64,000 nt of DNA from contig NC_088861.1 of NCBI RefSeq assembly GCF_963853765.1, positions 19,096,001 to 19,160,000 of the forward strand. The letters run 5' to 3'. The position numbers were made by a program. Of this stretch, positions 21,201 through 27,052 are shown one piece after another. Position 1 is the stretch's first letter, and every line of letters begins with the position of its first letter. Source of the DNA: Magallana gigas. Its lineage: Eukaryota.

Positions 21201-24200
21201 AATCACGTAAAATCCATTTTGCAGCGTCATTGAATAAGAGTAAACGTCCCTTTTTGTTTCCTTTTCTGTGTTGTGAGAATTGCACCAAATGCTTCTACTG
21301 CTTATTGCAGATTGGAATCAAACACACACCTAAGTTTTGCAATTGTAAATATTTCTAAAAAATCTTATCATTGTTTGGTTTAAAGAAAACCAATTTAACG
21401 GAACGCAAGTTTTCTGGTAGCAGTACATATACATGTAGCAGGTAATAATATTTTTTCCTTCAACTTCAGTCCTTAAACTGACTCAAAGTCCTCAAACGAG
21501 TACATTTGAAACAATTCATGATTGTGTGTCATGCGCCCATCTTTTTTCAATAGAAGAAAAAGAACAGCGATCTAATTTTTTTTAAAAACAATTAAAATTG
21601 CATGTATTAAGGAGAAAAAAATGTGCATCTGTGTACTTTATACAAGTTTTTGCGAGGCAAATGATTTGACTATTATATTCTCAGAAATAATAAATCTTTG
21701 ATCTTTGATAATCTATTTATACTCCAAGACAATTCAACATTTTTTAATAAGTCAGACTTTTATTCGATATACATAGTATATACAAGAAAAAGGCCAGCGT
21801 TCCTTTTCAAAATGAAATACCTTTATAAATTAAGTTTTTGTATTTTGCTGTGTTTGTGAACTTTAACTAATTAAATCAAGTTACAGATTTCAAAATACAA
21901 AAATAAAAGAATGTTCTTTAACATTTCAATTACTTTTATTTTCGAGGTCACAAAAAACCTGAAAAAATAATCTATAACATAAACATAAACAAAATAAATA
22001 AAACAACTCATCAAATGTGACTGAGACATAGGACACAAAACAAGAGGGTTTTTTTGCAAAAAAGACACATAATCAACAAGTTTTTCTAAAATAATACTTC
22101 GTATTTATTTTAGAAAAAAGGGGCGAAACTCATTCCATATGGACAGGATTTCATTATCAGCTTTGCTGCTGCTTGAATAGCAAACAAAAGTTCTTAGACT
22201 GCTTCATTCTATCGTAAGAACGACCAACTGTTGAATGCAGAACGCTGTCCGCAGAACGCAGTCGAAAGTACGAAACTGACACTGTCGTAATTAGCCAGCA
22301 TCACGATAATGCCATGCAAAATAAAAACCACAATGTTAAAAGATCATATTTATGACAAGTGTTTCTGACGGGCTTGTTGGATTAGCAAGCCCGACTCGCT
22401 GACAATTCGAGTTTTTTGCTTCCTTTTTTAAAAGTAATTATGTAAAGTAGGTGGCAAGATAAACCGCCGAGAAAATTTAATTAAACTTAATAAATTTATC
22501 TTACTGAACAATATTCCGAATAGAATATAACCAAATGGATAAAATCTTTAAACAATGACAAAAAAATTTTAAACAGTCACCACTGTTCAAAACAGTACTT
22601 ATTTTCCCTTCATCTTTGCAGCCACCACAAAACAGGTTATCCACTCCAGGAGGAAATAATGGAATAAAAATTCCCATTTGCAACGATTTTATCCCAAGTA
22701 ATTAAAGCGTGGCGCAGAGAATGAAGGCTGTACAGACATGTTGATGGGACTAGGTTTGAAGGGTTTCGCCAGTTTAAAAACAGTCAGTCTTCTCTGAATG
22801 ATCTTGGGATTTGTTCTAACAACAGACTGCGGTTTTTTTTTTTGTTGTGGGCGCTGTGCAACATTAGGCTGAGGTCCATGTACTGTTGGTCGTTTTCCAG
22901 GCAATTGCATTTGTGTTGCCGGTTGTTGTCCTGGCAGTTGCATTTGCTTTGGCATAGTTCTAGGCTGGCCCGGAAGTTGCATGCTGGTGACCTGTCGTTG
23001 GTAAGGACTAGGTCTGGGGTTGTTTTGCGGAAACTTTCTCTGGATCATGTTCTGGATTCTGTTGTGACGAGCAGTTTGGGCGGCTGTCAGACCGGCTGGA
23101 GCCTGCATTGGCATGGGTTCCATGGCAACTGGAGAAAAGAAAGCGGAACTTGGCTTTCCGACGAGTCCATGGTGTTGGTAATAGGGCGAAGGAGAGTTGC
23201 TTGGGTCCACATACAACTGAATCAATTTGTTCTGTGACTGTGATGGTTGAGACAAAGCTGGTCCAACCTGTACAGGCGCCGCTGGTGGTGGGGTAGTCGT
23301 CGTCGTTGTTGGCATTGTGGTAGTCGTAGTAGGGGCGGGCTGGTTCAGATTCATTTCGAAAGTCTTATGCAGAGTTGCCCTTGGTGCAAGTTGCTTGCAT
23401 ATAGGATCAATGTTCATCACCATGCAGACATTCCTATCGTGTTCAACTTCCATCAAGCACACTTGTAGGTCTTTGTTTGGCATTCCAGGTCTAAAGGGGA
23501 ACTCAATGCGACATTCTGCGATGTCCCCGATGTATGATGAGACACATTCCAGTTCACAAATTGCGGGGAACTGTGCATAGACTGCAGAAAGGCAACAAGC
23601 TACGAAAATCAGAGTTTTGTCCTAAAAAAAAAAGCATAACGAGTTTGTTAAAAAATAATTATCTCAAGAATAAACTCAAAAAGTTAGATACATTGTATAT
23701 CAAATCAAAATGTGAACACGGGCATTTCTAAATATTCAAAAACACAAAAGAAAAAGGTTTCAAAACCAAAAGAGAACGTTGGATTCCAACGTTGAAATAC
23801 CACTCTTATAGAATTCTAAGGTAGGGTTTTTAGCCTCGTGATAATTTAAATGCATCTTTGTGAGGAGGCACGTTTTGTTTTGCCTGCCTAATTTAGTTTT
23901 TTTTAAAAATAGACTTGCAATATCTAATATATATTCTAAGGGTACAACGATTACTCAGATTTGCAAAAAATTTGAAAATGAGGTATTCTCTTTGAAAAAA
24001 AAGTTTGTTCATAACATGTACAGACACAAAAGTAAAACTTACTGAAAATAGGATAAGTGAAACATTTTAAAAGATGAATGTTCACTTTTTCCCAATTGTT
24101 TTACATAGTTATTAATTTTTAAACAAAAAATTTAAAAATAAAGAATAAATTGTTGTCTCTAGCAAACATTAATAAATGATACAACTTACCATTTTGCCTT

Positions 24201-27052
24201 TTATAGAGCAGCCGTTTGTTAATCCTGTGAAGTGTTCACTGAAATTATGAGAAATGAAACTGAGCGCTTCTAGTTATAAGCTTGAGTTAATCATGTGACA
24301 TTAATATTCAAGGTCCGCCTAAGTCACGTCGTATTTTACACAAACGCTGGATGTTAATATACTATTTATTGTTTTCTCACCACGTATATTCAAATTTTTA
24401 TTGAAACTTTTTTTTCAGTCACTGCCCTTATTTATATTTAGAGCCGTTAAGTTTATTATTTTTTTACACAGGAAATGCTTATTCCAAATATGAGCATGAT
24501 GCTCATGTCACACACATTCCCGAAGTTTTTTTTTGTATCTTAATTTTAAATATGTATGAAGACATTTCGAGAATTATTTCCATCATCGAAATTTAATGGC
24601 TGGTAATAAAATCTTTGCAGAAATAATAAAATTATAATACTGCATACCTCGGAGACGTCAGAAGATAGTCGAATTTGGAGACAGGTTCTTATGAACATGT
24701 CAGATTCCAGCAATGATGGACGTTCTTTATGATAGGTACATGAGTTATAAATGTATAATTACATGCAGTCGGTTTTGTATCCAAATCGTAAAACTCCGGT
24801 GTAAAATTGCTATTAATATCGCTTAACATATATCAAACAGGCACCGTATTCTTGCTTTACAGACTAACAGCTAGTTAAACAATATATATTTGGTAAAACG
24901 TATGTGGTTTTTTTTAGTCATTTCTGTGCATAATTAAGCTGGACATAACAAGTTCTTCTTCGGTATGTAGGACGTTTGAATATAGAATAAGAATTTACAT
25001 GTATTACCAGTATTTCTTTAAGTTTGAATAAATGAAATTTTTGAAAAGAACTAAATACGAAATGTGCACATCATTTTTGCGTCTGGACAGAGTTTGACCC
25101 AGGGCACTACAAAACAAAGTTAACGATAAAAAGTCAAAATGATTAACAGTTTAGGGAGCAATTCTCTATTATTACAATGAATGTTGGTATTTCTACAAAA
25201 TTAAAATATATAATCTAATCACATGTTTTAAATAATCGAAAAAAAAGACATTTATGTGATTTAGAAAAAAGTAACAAATATCCTGCTTTAGTTATTCTCC
25301 AAAAACTGCACTCCTAAAGGCAGAGTTTGGCGACGGCGCTACGACATCTTAATCAATTTGTCTTAGTTTACTTAGATAATGAGTATTCTAGAATATATGA
25401 AAGGTATACATAAAGTGTTATTATCAATATTATCAATAACAGCTAACATTTGACTAAAATATTTAAACTTTTTTCACTTTTTCTTATTTTTTTTCTCCTG
25501 AAAAATATAACATTATTTAGTTTTACTGTACAATGAATTGGGTTTTCAGATTATTAAAGCTCTGGTAGATTCTTTTTGTAAAAAAAACGAATTGAATTAA
25601 TGCACGCCTGATCCATTTATAAAAATAAATCGTATGATTAAATATCACTAAAAGAACGTACATAAAAAAAACTGCACGCATAATGTTACTTAAAATCTAA
25701 AATGCAGATTGATGCTTTAAAAAACACTTCTATATAAAAGTACTTCTATATAAGACTGTAAATACAATATCAATACATGCAAACCAGTTTTTTTTATTGC
25801 TGGAGGTAAGAATTTACAACTTATCGGGCCCATTTGTTCAGAATATGGATTTTTGGACAAAAAAGATCGAACTGGACCAGGAGTTGTGCCAAGTCTGTAG
25901 GCAATGCCAAGAATCGCTCAACACAACAACATAGAGATTGTGAATACTGTCAGTAAACCGAAAAAATAACACAGCACAAAAATGGAAACATCGGCCAAAG
26001 GTAGAACTGAATATATCAAATTACCTCTGGTGTTCCAAAATTATAACTTTGAGAAACGTTTTAACGTCGAAAAAGGTAGACCGAAAAGACAACTAAATAA
26101 ATGACTTTAAATGCGTCAAACTGCAAAAAAAATATTCTCGTTATTACAAAGCTTTTAATTCTTTTAAAAATCTTAATGAACACCCTCCCCCCTCCCCGAA
26201 ATATCAGCAGGTGAATCGTAAAGATGTCATGCAAAACGCAATTCTTTTAAAAAATCTTAAAAAAACCTAAAAATTATTTGTGTCAGACTTTTGACAGACA
26301 GACAGCTTTCTGAGTAGGACGATGTCCATTTATTTAACTATTAATGTCACCTTGATTCTGCTCCTGGATTGTAAAAGATACAAACACGGGTTCAAAAATA
26401 CATCTTTGAATCTCTTTATTTCATCATGATTTCTTTATTTGAAATCTTAATTTGCATAAATAAAACACGAAACCGCCATTATTGAGTGCATTTTGCTAAC
26501 ACCTATTTAAACAAAACAAAATATCTGGTTTCGGTAGATCTTTGTTGCATAATATCTGCAAACGAAAATTATAAAAATCAAATTTTTTTTTACCAACAAT
26601 ACGTAAATGAAACATGCAACTTTTTGATATCCTTACAGTTTTCATTTCATTTGCAAAGATTTAAGTAAAAGTACAGATTTTCAAATTGTAGGTAAAGGGA
26701 AATTATGGGTTCAAGTTCCGCCTTTAAATAGATTCTTTTCACATTGGCCTGATATTTTTAGCTCATTTGCCATTAAAAAACGTAAAATGTGACACATCTT
26801 GCCTCATGCGCTTTTTTAACGTTAATCATACGTAAATCTCCGTAACGAAAACCAATAGAACCATTCAAAATTTGCTCTATTACGTAATAAACATGTTATA
26901 CAGTACGATGTTATTTGAAACATCATTATGTGTCAAAATGATATCTTATTTAAGATTATTGTAAAATCAAAACCATGTTTATAAGCATCTTAACAAATTA
27001 TTACAGTCGTAAACTACGGGTTTATTGTTTTGTACTTTGCTTTTTAACGTTT

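What the first reader, a model, noticed from the sequence alone, without database searches (positions are those of the whole stretch)
22689..24238. Orphan secreted protein: 6-Cys head, MQLPG repeats and basic tail, with a start codon on its own exon
Seen: splicing a lone ATG to the large exon creates a clean signal peptide that the ORF track misses. The mature protein has a C-x3-C-x10-C-x17-C-x10-C-x8-C domain, a Thr/Pro stalk, a Gln/Pro/Met-rich region with three MQLPG repeats and a Lys/Arg-rich tail. I recognise no family. Established: molluscan shell-matrix, mucus and adhesive proteins often pair a small disulfide domain with low-complexity regions. Inference: a lineage-specific extracellular structural or biomineralisation protein, possibly self-assembling.
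Basis: partly seen in the sequence, partly recalled or inferred. Interest (0 to 1): 0.68.

Follow-up and report, generated by a model that had tools for sequence, protein, structure and literature searches.

The report
Oyster-only secreted protein, helical-hairpin head
This is a real, spliced Pacific-oyster gene for a secreted protein with a small disulfide-braced helical head and a long, basic, floppy body; it belongs to a small family found only in oysters, its function is untested, and a shell or other extracellular-matrix role is the best guess.

Summary
On the minus strand, ATG 24192-24190 is followed by GTAAGT. A 568-nt intron ends in a T-run plus AG, and exon 2 (23621-22692) encodes 310 residues. 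Public proteins confirm the splice: UniProt A0A8W8JE75 (Magallana gigas) reads from the 5'UTR through the ATG into exon 2, and 311-aa MDKTL... proteins occur on 18 transcript-sized contigs. The Cys spacing, T/P stalk, three MQLPG copies and basic tail are all as described.

It is not a strict orphan. Orthologues at 57-65% identity exist in Crassostrea virginica and Saccostrea cucullata. A profile search of 1.84 billion proteins adds only a sister clade with 8 Cys in Ostrea, Saccostrea and C. virginica, one member once named "gigasin-4-like".

AlphaFold models both heads as a helix-loop-helix plus a short helix and the rest as disordered. The 6-Cys clade lacks exactly two mirror-placed cysteines. 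No Pfam, PDB or fold match was found.

An acidic head and a very basic body are conserved. The function is untested; a secreted matrix protein is my best inference, and the shell link rests on one name.

The parts
24238..24278 (-). Candidate core promoter: TATAA at 24278-24274 and TCAGT initiator-like motif at 24242-24238
   Evidence: Motif positions. Their role is inferred only from their place just upstream of the 5' end of the annotated transcript (P0007 starts at the codon 24234-24232).
24190..24234 (-). Exon 1, minimum extent: 5'UTR plus the start codon ATG (24192-24190). A TATAAA at 24205-24200 lies inside this UTR and is therefore not the promoter TATA box.
   Evidence: The window translation NFSEHFTGLTNGCSIKGKM matches the first 15 residues of UniProt A0A8W8JE75 (P0007) at 14 of 15. 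The donor is ATG|GTAAGT.
23622..24189 (-). Intron, 568 nt, GT...AG, phase 0, directly after the start codon
   Evidence: Sequence. The junction is confirmed by P0007, P0009 and P0014. No repeat family overlaps it.
23574..23621 (-). Start of exon 2: signal-peptide-like leader DKTLIFVACCLSAVYA (with the spliced Met), with a likely cut after A-V-Y-A
   Evidence: GRAVY 1.47. Modelled as a helix at residues 3-15. 88-94% identical across species. The cleavage site is inferred by eye (small residues at -3/-1); no dedicated predictor was available.
23346..23573 (-). Acidic 6-Cys head (residues 17-92): C-x3-C-x10-C-x17-C-x10-C-x8-C followed by the H-x2-F motif; predicted helix-loop-helix plus a short third helix
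   Evidence: Spacing in 5 of 5 clade members. pI 4.95. AlphaFold helices at 21-40, 50-68 and 73-78, with block pLDDT 71-82. Homology to the 8-Cys clade: hhalign 99.3%, E 1.5e-20.
23274..23345 (-). Thr/Pro stalk (residues 93-116), a likely mucin-type O-glycosylation region
   Evidence: 46% T and 29% P. A T/P-rich stretch follows the head in 9 of 9 long family members. Glycosylation is inferred.
23022..23273 (-). Conserved middle region (residues 117-200) with islands LIQLYVD, GLVGKP, SPVA-EP and an amphipathic helix candidate RHNRIQNMIQR
   Evidence: 60-76% identity to orthologues with few indels. Helix 180-194 in the model at pLDDT about 57. Helical hydrophobic moment 0.57.
22836..23021 (-). 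Gln/Pro/Met-rich variable region (residues 201-262) with three MQLPG copies at residues 214, 227 and 238
   Evidence: 23% Q, 21% P, net charge +9. 35-47% identity with 10-24 indel columns. No DNA-level tandem repeat was detected. Orthologues have fewer or altered copies.
22692..22835 (-). Conserved basic tail (residues 263-310) with RTNPKIIQRRLTVFKLAKP
   Evidence: pI 12, net charge +9. 58-75% identity. The motif V[FHY]KL[AS] lies 12-30 residues from the C-end in 9 of 9 long proteins of both clades.
22689..22691 (-). Stop codon TAA
22085..22688 (-). Probable 3'UTR, with ATTAAA at 22481-22476 and AATAAA at 22109-22104. The 3' end is approximate.
   Evidence: Signals. Contigs of 1526-1599 nt carrying the spliced protein fit use of the distal AATAAA (about 1590 nt) better than the proximal signal (about 1220 nt). 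This is inference.

Best explanation
This is a two-exon gene of the Pacific oyster (Magallana gigas or a very close relative) for a 311-residue secreted protein. It belongs to a small family seen only in true oysters (Ostreidae).

Shown:
- The spliced mRNA exists.
- The protein starts with a hydrophobic leader.
- Next comes an acidic 6-Cys head. Models give it as two antiparallel helices plus a short third helix.
- Then follow a Thr/Pro stalk and a strongly basic body (pI about 11-12). The body is modelled as disordered, yet it carries conserved sequence islands and a conserved basic C-terminal motif.
- A sister clade has the same layout with eight cysteines.

Inferred:
- The leader is cleaved and the protein leaves the cell.
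- The head is braced by a ladder of three disulfides across the hairpin: Cys22-Cys75, Cys26-Cys66 and Cys37-Cys55 in exon-2 numbering. The fourth rung of the 8-Cys relatives was lost as a pair.
- The stalk is O-glycosylated.
- The protein works as an extracellular matrix component, most likely of the mantle secretome or shell matrix. Its basic Q/P-rich body and tail would stick to polyanionic partners (acidic matrix proteins, sulfated glycans, carbonate surfaces). Its acidic, rigid head would act as a docking or spacing knob. The two could also pair head-to-tail between molecules.

The gene, its secretion signal, the family and the fold class are well supported. The matrix or shell role is the weak, inferred step.
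For: Gene and splice:
- Canonical donor and acceptor.
- P0007 reads from the 5'UTR and ATG straight into exon 2.
- MDKTL... proteins occur on 18 contigs of up to 1599 nt.
- The frame is far longer than chance allows: 310 aa against a maximum of 175 in 100 shuffles.

Conservation:
- 5 proteins with E <= 0.01 among 846 candidates, with orthologues at 57-65% identity in C. virginica and S. cucullata.
- 16 near-identical M. gigas-cluster sequences show only 14 variable positions of 310.

Family:
- The profile search of 1.84e9 representatives gave 5 hits with E <= 1e-3. One is an orthologue, three are 8-Cys proteins, and one is a low-complexity false hit.
- hhalign between the clades: 99.3%, E 1.5e-20, over residues 1-94.
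- The tree splits into two clades, each with 100/100 support.
- Named members come from Magallana, Crassostrea, Saccostrea and Ostrea only.

Fold:
- AlphaFold helices 21-40, 50-68 and 73-78 with block pLDDT 71-82.
- The O. edulis 8-Cys head has helices 27-46, 53-73 and 77-80 with block pLDDT 86-90.
- Cys offsets 0, 4, 11, 15 and 0, 4, 11 fall on one helix face (wheel angles 0-60 degrees) and mirror each other about the loop.
- The 6-Cys clade (5 of 5) lacks exactly the two mirror positions that the 8-Cys clade (5 of 5) has.

Rest of the protein:
- pLDDT below 50 over 217 of 310 residues.
- Acidic head (pI 4.1-5.5) against a basic rest (pI 11.1-12.0) in 9 of 9 long members.

Matrix reading:
- One sister-clade protein was named gigasin-4-like by NCBI. 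Gigasins are oyster shell-matrix proteins (passage citing Marie et al. 2011).
- Lineage-specific secreted proteins with repetitive low-complexity domains dominate molluscan mantle secretomes, C. gigas included (PMC5400390, abstract and section 8).
Against: - No expression or proteomic datum ties this protein to mantle or shell.
- No open paper text holds any accession of the family (0 papers) or a conserved peptide of it (0).
- The 'gigasin-4-like' name was dropped in the later RefSeq version of that protein, which is now 'uncharacterized'. I could not compare with Gigasin-4 itself.
- Classical mineral-binding matrix proteins are often acidic, whereas this one is strongly basic (mature pI about 10).
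- The disulfide ladder is deduced from spacing and from secondary structure only. The tool gives no coordinates, so Cys-Cys distances are unchecked.
- Crude helix/strand propensities and hydrophobic moments of the two arms were inconclusive.
- Several 8-Cys members have Pro inside the modelled helices.
- The alignments behind the models hold only 9-10 sequences, and several of them are close paralogues or alleles.
- The neighbours (C1q and dermatopontin genes, retroelement fragments) give no functional cluster.
Confidence: 0.45

Rival explanations
1. It is a secreted structural or lubricating protein of a soft-tissue secretion rather than of the shell. Candidates are pallial or gill mucus, egg coat, crystalline style or larval/adult adhesive. 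The glycosylated stalk and sticky basic body would do the work there.
For: It shares the signal leader, the T/P stalk (46% T) and the disordered basic body. The T-rich stretch of a relative weakly resembles the insect 'New glue' and mucin-like models, below their cut-offs (22.3 bits against 31). Nothing ties the protein to the shell specifically.
Against: The stalk is short (24 residues), unlike gel-forming mucins. The only named relative points to a shell protein. No Cys knot, VWD or other mucin oligomerisation domain was found.
Confidence: 0.3
2. It is a host-defence protein. The disulfide-braced helical hairpin would act like plant alpha-hairpinins or scorpion and cone-snail helical-hairpin toxins (antimicrobial, protease-inhibiting or channel-blocking). 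The cationic tail would add membrane activity.
For: The head is modelled as a helix-loop-helix. The 8-Cys relatives carry the CX3C...CX3C motif that defines alpha-hairpinins, with Cys1-Cys4 and Cys2-Cys3 bonds (PMC7191063, passages). The tail is cationic (net +9). A cashew vicilin leader peptide appears among the fold look-alikes, though not significantly (E 7.2, TMt 0.52). The gene sits among C1q genes.
Against: The head is acidic (pI about 5), whereas most such peptides are basic. This clade keeps only one CX3C. There are no conserved dibasic or other processing sites that would release a peptide. The long conserved body has no counterpart in those families. There is no significant sequence or fold match.
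Confidence: 0.12
3. It is a precursor of secreted signalling peptides, with the conserved islands (for example the RHNRIQNMIQR or RTNPKIIQRRLTV segments) cut out as hormones or pheromones.
For: It has a signal leader, short highly conserved islands in an otherwise variable body, and a C-terminal Gly in 4 of 5 clade members.
Against: No conserved flanking dibasic sites: the single KR (GKRP) is present only in the M. gigas sequence. The islands are not repeated. The folded Cys head and glycosylation stalk are untypical of neuropeptide precursors.
Confidence: 0.05
4. It is not a functional gene: a chance frame or a decaying pseudogene.
For: None beyond the unusual lone-ATG first exon. The window allele has an A-run giving KKK where 15 of 15 other sequences read QKQ.
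Against: The frame is intact. It is conserved across three genera, with indels confined to the repeat region. Spliced proteins occur on transcript-sized contigs. The frame is far beyond chance length.
Confidence: 0.01

Closest known systems
8-Cys oyster proteins: O. edulis XP_048766768, S. echinata XP_061195643, and C. virginica XP_022294715 (named 'gigasin-4-like' in its first version). By that name, Gigasin-4 of the C. gigas shell matrix (Marie et al. 2011, recalled; paper not held).
   Same: Homologous leader, head and H-x2-F motif (hhalign 99.3%, E 1.5e-20). Same order of parts: head, T/P stalk, basic P/Q-rich disordered body, and V[FHY]KL[AS] near the C-end. Same start MDK.L. Oysters only.
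   Different: Eight cysteines against six. The bodies are not alignable beyond short motifs: hhalign covers residues 1-94 only. The two form separate clades with 100/100 support. Whether the true Gigasin-4 has this head was not tested, because its sequence was not retrievable.
Alpha-hairpinins of plants and helical-hairpin toxins of scorpions and cone snails (CX3C-Xn-CX3C; PMC7191063, passages; PMC11591084, search listing)
   Same: A helix-loop-helix braced by disulfides between cysteines spaced i, i+4 on facing helices. The 8-Cys relatives contain the motif on each arm.
   Different: No sequence homology. Those are free peptides of about 20-50 residues with two disulfides and mostly basic. 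Here the hairpin is longer, has 3-4 predicted disulfides, is acidic, and is the head of a 311-residue protein with no sign of processing. This clade keeps only one CX3C.
Lineage-restricted molluscan mantle-secretome or shell-matrix proteins with repetitive low-complexity domains (PMC5400390, abstract and section 8; PMC5854119, section 15)
   Same: Secreted and taxon-restricted. Pairs a small unique domain with fast-evolving repeats that expand and contract between species: MQLPG copies number 3 in M. gigas against 2 or fewer in the others.
   Different: Membership of that class is operational (expressed in mantle or found in shell) and was not tested here. Most of this protein's non-repeat body is well conserved.
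N-terminal domain of repulsive guidance molecule B (PDB 6z3m chain J) and other small helical bundles
   Same: Best-shaped fold look-alike of the 8-Cys head (TM 0.53 on the target, 61 columns).
   Different: Not significant (E 2.9, probability 0.35, 15% identity). I regard it as a generic helical resemblance.

Membership tests
Oyster Cys-head family (8-Cys 'gigasin-4-like' clade plus this 6-Cys clade) | Homologous leader plus Cys head ending in H-x2-F | tested here: met
   hmmsearch with the 6-Cys profile finds 8-Cys proteins at E 9e-9, 1.3e-8 and 4.9e-6 over the whole library. hhalign gives 99.3%, E 1.5e-20. tblastn of the 8-Cys proteins hits only this exon in the window, at E 1e-12 to 1e-7.
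Oyster Cys-head family (8-Cys 'gigasin-4-like' clade plus this 6-Cys clade) | Eight cysteines spaced 3-6-3-(13..17)-3-6-8 | tested here: not met
   This protein and 4 of 4 orthologues have the spacing 3-10-17-10-8, with Gly and Val in place of the 3rd and 6th Cys. It is therefore a sister clade, not a member of the 8-Cys clade.
Oyster Cys-head family (8-Cys 'gigasin-4-like' clade plus this 6-Cys clade) | Shared layout: T/P stalk, basic disordered body, V[FHY]KL[AS] near the C-end, acidic head | tested here: met
   Found in 9 of 9 long proteins of both clades. The tenth, a 143-aa C. virginica model, ends right after the head.
Gigasin-4 (Swiss-Prot shell-matrix protein of C. gigas) | Direct sequence similarity to Gigasin-4 itself | not testable with these tools
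   No search returned a protein named Gigasin-4 (in one search only the 8000 candidates sharing most words were scored). The link is NCBI's name for XP_022294715.1 only.
Molluscan shell matrix proteins (operational class) | Peptides identified in cleaned shell extracts, or mantle-epithelium expression | not testable with these tools
   Supplementary proteome tables are closed. Main-text searches for accessions and one peptide gave 0 papers.
Alpha-hairpinins | Cys motif C1-X3-C2-Xn-C3-X3-C4 | tested here: not met
   This clade has C-x3-C on helix 1 only, and the second arm reads C-x10-C. The 8-Cys relatives do carry CX3C on both arms.
Alpha-hairpinins | Helix-loop-helix fold | tested here: met
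   AlphaFold helices 21-40 and 50-68 (block pLDDT 71-82), and 27-46 and 53-73 in the O. edulis relative (86-90). This is a model, not a structure.
Alpha-hairpinins | Short free peptide, or one released from a precursor; sequence relationship | tested here: not met
   The head is part of a 311-aa protein without conserved processing sites. No Pfam, PDB-sequence or significant fold match was found.
Secretory proteins with a cleavable signal peptide | N-terminal n-h-c leader | tested here: met
   M-DK, then 12 hydrophobic residues, then V-Y-A (GRAVY 1.47; helix 3-15). It is conserved in both clades. This rests on simple criteria only; no dedicated predictor was available.
Mucin-like (PTS) proteins | Thr/Pro/Ser-rich O-glycosylation region | tested here: met
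   Residues 93-116 are 46% T and 29% P. Glycosylation itself is not testable here, and no mucin oligomerisation domains were found.

The most novel reading that the evidence does not exclude
The head is a new extracellular fold class in animals: an elongated alpha-hairpin stapled by a ladder of three or four disulfides. It would have arisen in the ancestor of true oysters and be fused to a basic disordered body. The conserved acidic-head/basic-tail dipole would drive head-to-tail self-assembly into a matrix. The family, confined to Ostrea, Saccostrea and Crassostrea/Magallana, would contribute to an oyster-only shell trait such as chalky calcite, which has the same taxonomic spread (PMC10543319, passages), or to cementation.
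Probability: 0.1. Interest if true: 0.6.

Novelty: new member of a known kind. Interest (0 to 1): 0.35.

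Why it matters
If the matrix reading is right, this is a compact and tractable example of how oysters built lineage-specific extracellular proteins. It combines a small, probably very stable disulfide-laddered helical hairpin with a glycosylated stalk and a charged disordered body whose repeat number shifts between species.

The paired loss of two mirror-placed cysteines between sister clades is a natural experiment on how many disulfide rungs such a hairpin needs.

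In practical terms, the gene is a reminder that ORF-based scans miss secreted proteins whose only first-exon coding content is the ATG.

As it stands, it is an already annotated, uncharacterised oyster gene of moderate interest.

Tried and rejected
- ESM Atlas look-alikes for the whole exon-2 protein and for the head alone: no usable hit.
- Pfam on the protein and on five 8-Cys relatives: nothing above the cut-offs. The hits to TFIIA, New_glue, MUCL1, AWS and opioid neuropeptide models are compositional or tiny.
- PDB sequence search with the family profile: only LpqN at E 2.1, on the T/P stretch.
- Foldseek against the PDB with both models: 0 matches at E <= 1e-3.
- Complex prediction on two copies of the head: verdict 'no answer' (score 0.01, mark 0.32). 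The alignment was not used and the controls were not run. This says nothing either way about self-association.
- Crude helix/strand propensities and hydrophobic moments of the head arms: inconclusive.
- The TOP-IDP disorder scale: I did not use it, because I only recalled its cut-off.
- A search with the 99-aa C. virginica 'gigasin-4-like' protein found only itself.
- Literature:
  - 'gigasin-4', 'gigasin 4' and 'gigasin4' do not occur in any listed open paper.
  - 12 accessions or locus names of family members gave 0 papers.
  - One conserved 7-residue peptide gave 0 papers.
  - Marie et al. 2011 is not held.
- No paralogue in the window, no DNA tandem repeat in the CDS, no dispersed repeat over the gene, and no Rfam family or tRNA in the window.
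- Names such as 'Rho GTPase-activating protein gacII-like' and 'regulation of nuclear pre-mRNA domain-containing protein 2-like' on the orthologues: I rejected these as low-complexity name transfer, since no such domain is found.
- Not done:
  - Genome contigs holds only bacteria and archaea, so I did not use it.
  - As a result, gene structure and synteny in other oysters are unchecked.

Full report
**What is there**

The gene lies on the minus strand. An ATG at 24192-24190 is followed at once by GTAAGT. After 568 nt a long T-run and AG (23623-22) lead into exon 2, which starts GAC AAA ACT at 23621 and stays open to TAA at 22691-22689. Exon 2 encodes 310 residues (P0001).

This is the second-longest frame in the window. 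It is far longer than any frame in 100 block shuffles (maximum 175 aa). The block that holds it is the most G+C-rich of the window (0.397).

The first in-frame Met inside exon 2 is residue 47. Only the spliced ATG therefore gives the hydrophobic leader (M)DKTLIFVACCLSAVYA.

Exon 1 contributes only the initiator codon, and every search and fold used the exon-2 translation. I left the joined step out.

**The splice is real**

- The 90%-identity cluster around the protein (161 members, 40 read) contains UniProt A0A8W8JE75_MAGGI. Its first 15 residues, HFTGLTNGCSTKGKM, match the window's translation of 24234-24190 at 14 of 15, and it then runs straight into DKTLIF....
- Two 311-aa proteins starting MDKTL sit on 15 and 3 contigs, the longest 1526 and 1599 nt. 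That size fits a start near the TCAGT at 24242-24238 and use of the AATAAA at 22109-22104. This is inference.
- Other members of the cluster (MFLNITRYAFFQDKTL..., MLFFQDKTL..., and forms starting at internal Met) are prokaryote-style ORF calls on genomic contigs. They are not evidence for the splice.
- RefSeq models of relatives also begin MDK[TR]L.

The organism is Magallana (Crassostrea) gigas or a very close relative. The window is not human. The window allele is unique at three positions (K261, K263, S296) where 15 of 15 other sequences read Q, Q, P.

**The described features**

- The Cys spacing 3-10-17-10-8 is found in 5 of 5 sequences of the clade.
- The stalk is 46% Thr and 29% Pro.
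- MQLPG occurs at residues 214, 227 and 238. This is more than chance: 6 of 20000 shuffles of the mature protein and 16 of 20000 shuffles of residues 201-262 reached three copies of any 5-mer.
- The tail has a net charge of +9.
- The mature protein is basic overall (pI about 10, net +18), while the head is acidic (pI 4.95).

**Relatives**

The word-indexed search gave 5 proteins with E <= 0.01 among 846 candidates. These were the M. gigas cluster, two C. virginica clusters (64-65% identity; LOC111102521, LOC111102728), one S. cucullata protein (57%) and one fragment (names).

The names on the orthologues ('Rho GTPase-activating protein gacII-like', 'regulation of nuclear pre-mRNA domain-containing protein 2-like') are low-complexity name transfers. 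Pfam finds nothing (best 7.1 bits against a cut-off of 36.2).

Conservation by region is informative:

| Region | Identity to orthologues | Note |
|---|---|---|
| Leader | 88-94% | |
| Head | 64-72% | |
| Stalk | 62-75% | |
| Middle region | 60-76% | few indels |
| MQLPG region | 35-47% | 10-24 indel columns |
| Tail | 58-75% | |

The 'low-complexity' body is therefore mostly constrained, and only the repeat region is free.

**A sister clade**

An exhaustive HMMER search of 1.84 billion representatives with the four-sequence profile gave only 5 proteins with E <= 1e-3:

- the S. cucullata orthologue;
- three proteins with the same head but eight cysteines: an unnamed 292-aa protein, S. echinata XP_061195643, and C. 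virginica XP_022294715;
- one 660-aa low-complexity false hit that matches only profile positions 159-219.

A further profile search added O. edulis XP_048766768 and another unnamed lineage.

Profile-profile comparison of the two clades gives 99.3% probability and E 1.5e-20 over residues 1-94 only. A maximum-likelihood tree of 10 sequences splits them with 100/100 support on each side.

Both clades share the layout in 9 of 9 long proteins: an acidic head (pI 4.1-5.5), a T/P stalk, a basic P/Q-rich body (pI 11.1-12.0), and a V[FHY]KL[AS] motif 12-30 residues from the C-end. The tenth protein, a 143-aa C. virginica model, ends after the head.

Every named member is an oyster of the Ostreidae. 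I found no 6-Cys member in Ostrea and no named 8-Cys member in M. gigas. I did not trace the unnamed sequences.

**The head**

In the 8-Cys clade the spacing is 3-6-3-(13..17)-3-6-8 in 5 of 5 sequences. The 6-Cys clade lacks exactly the third and sixth cysteines, with Gly and Val instead.

The Cys offsets are 0, 4, 11, 15 on the first arm and 0, 4, 11 on the second. They fall within 60 degrees on a helical wheel and mirror each other about the loop.

AlphaFold2 models:

| Model | Alignment | Head helices | Head block pLDDT |
|---|---|---|---|
| This protein | 9 sequences | 21-40, 50-68, 73-78 | 71-82 |
| O. edulis 8-Cys protein | 10 sequences | 27-46, 53-73, 77-80 | 86-90 |

The rest of this protein is modelled below pLDDT 50 (217 of 310 residues). 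The exception is a helix at 180-194 (about 57), which is also strongly amphipathic (moment 0.57).

From this I infer a helical hairpin stapled by a disulfide ladder: C1-C8, C2-C7, C3-C6 and C4-C5. The finding's clade would have lost one whole rung.

Caveats:
- The tool returns no coordinates, so Cys-Cys distances are unchecked.
- Simple propensity measures were inconclusive.
- Some 8-Cys members have Pro inside the modelled helices.
- The alignments are shallow, and several rows are close paralogues or alleles.

Foldseek against the PDB gave no match at E <= 1e-3 for either model. The best values were 1.7 and 2.1. Non-significant look-alikes include the RGMB N-terminal domain and a cashew vicilin leader peptide. 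The PDB sequence search and the ESM Atlas gave nothing.

**What it most likely does**

Shown: a spliced, conserved gene for a protein with a secretory leader, a folded acidic Cys head, a T/P stalk, and a basic, largely disordered but conserved body.

Inferred: secretion, three disulfides, O-glycosylation, and an extracellular matrix role. In that role the basic body and tail would bind polyanionic partners, and the rigid acidic head would serve as a docking knob. Intermolecular head-to-tail pairing is possible.

The shell-matrix version of this reading rests on three things:
- NCBI's former name 'gigasin-4-like' for one sister-clade protein;
- gigasins being oyster shell-matrix proteins (PMC5854119, passage; Marie et al. 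2011 recalled and not held);
- the general finding that lineage-specific secreted proteins with repetitive low-complexity domains dominate molluscan mantle secretomes, C. gigas included (PMC5400390, abstract and section 8).

The family's spread (Ostrea, Saccostrea, Crassostrea/Magallana) equals that of chalky calcite. One paper counts 620 Ostreidae-specific gene families (PMC10543319, passages). This is a coincidence of range, not evidence.

Against the shell reading:
- there are no expression or proteome data;
- the protein is basic;
- no open paper text mentions any family member or Gigasin-4;
- the name was withdrawn in the later RefSeq version.

Rival readings are a soft-tissue secretion protein (mucus, egg coat, adhesive), a host-defence protein with an alpha-hairpinin-like head, and a peptide precursor. 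Their weights are in the Rival explanations section.

**Surroundings**

The gene stands alone. No other convincing frame lies between about 14 and 29 kb. No paralogue occurs in the window, and no repeat overlaps the gene.

Further away lie:
- a duplicated C1q gene segment;
- a cluster of dermatopontin-like exons;
- retroelement fragments.

Two runs of N near the window ends were left as they are.

**What stayed unchecked**

- Tissue and stage expression.
- Shell, mucus and cement proteomes. Supplementary tables are closed, and those of PMC5854119 and PMC10543319 may well bear on the claim.
- The Gigasin-4 sequence.
- Gene structure and synteny in other oysters.
- Actual disulfide bonds.
- Self-association. 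One complex job gave no verdict; see Tried and rejected.

**Verdict**

This is an already annotated but uncharacterised oyster gene. It is a new member of the known kind 'lineage-restricted secreted mollusc proteins with a small Cys domain and low-complexity regions'. Its head is neat and apparently undescribed: a disulfide-laddered helical hairpin, with a paired Cys loss between sister clades. Interest is moderate (0.35).

Noticed in passing
window 29823-34200 and 56493-63065, minus strand: A segment with a pair of C1q-domain genes is duplicated within the window at 80-95% identity in five collinear blocks. Each gene has a leader/coiled-coil exon followed by a C1q exon (Pfam C1q, E 3e-12 and 5e-13). 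A further C1q-like fragment lies at 29258-29494.
   Followed up: partly
window 45711-46064 (-), 47765-48064 (-), 48254-48601 (-), 51055-51444 (+), 52688-52939 (-): A cluster of dermatopontin-like exons lies on both strands. Pfam DERM scores E 4e-10, above its cut-off, for 48254-48601, and is weaker for 45711-46064; the others I recognised by eye. Dermatopontins are known mollusc shell-matrix components (recalled). The cluster is 22 kb from the finding's gene, and no functional link is shown.
   Followed up: partly
window 37367-38254 (-) and 43538-45007 (-): Retroelement remnants. A 295-aa frame resembles the C-terminal part of a reverse transcriptase by eye, with no Pfam hit. The window's longest frame (489 aa) has a zf-RVT domain (E 1e-9). 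Short repeats flank the second one (43153-45724).
   Followed up: no
window 22833-22843 and 22734-22736, minus strand: The window's allele has an A-run that reads Q-K-K-K-P where 15 of 15 other sequences of the cluster read Q-Q-K-Q-P. It also has Ser at residue 296 where they have Pro. This may be an allele, a sister species, or a homopolymer consensus quirk. The frame is not disturbed.
   Followed up: partly
window 24200-24205, minus strand: A perfect TATAAA sits only 8 nt upstream of the start codon, inside the annotated 5'UTR. It is not the promoter TATA box for the transcript seen in UniProt A0A8W8JE75. A weaker TATAA lies at 24278-24274.
   Followed up: partly
protein P0026 (C. virginica XP_078328284.1), no window coordinates: One C. 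virginica isoform starts MSTDKTL instead of MDKTL. This is an alternative first coding exon joining the same exon-2 boundary, so the phase-0 intron right before Asp seems conserved. The O. edulis 8-Cys protein also starts MDKTL.
   Followed up: no
window 2-916, plus strand: An open frame running in from the window's left edge encodes a Lys/Glu/Ser-rich protein with a weak, sub-threshold CCDC34 match (E 0.004). It ends shortly before one of the two N runs.
   Followed up: no
window about 18200-18300 (+) and 54780-54960 (-): Two dinucleotide microsatellites show up as YIYIYI... and SLSLSL... in the frame translations.
   Followed up: no
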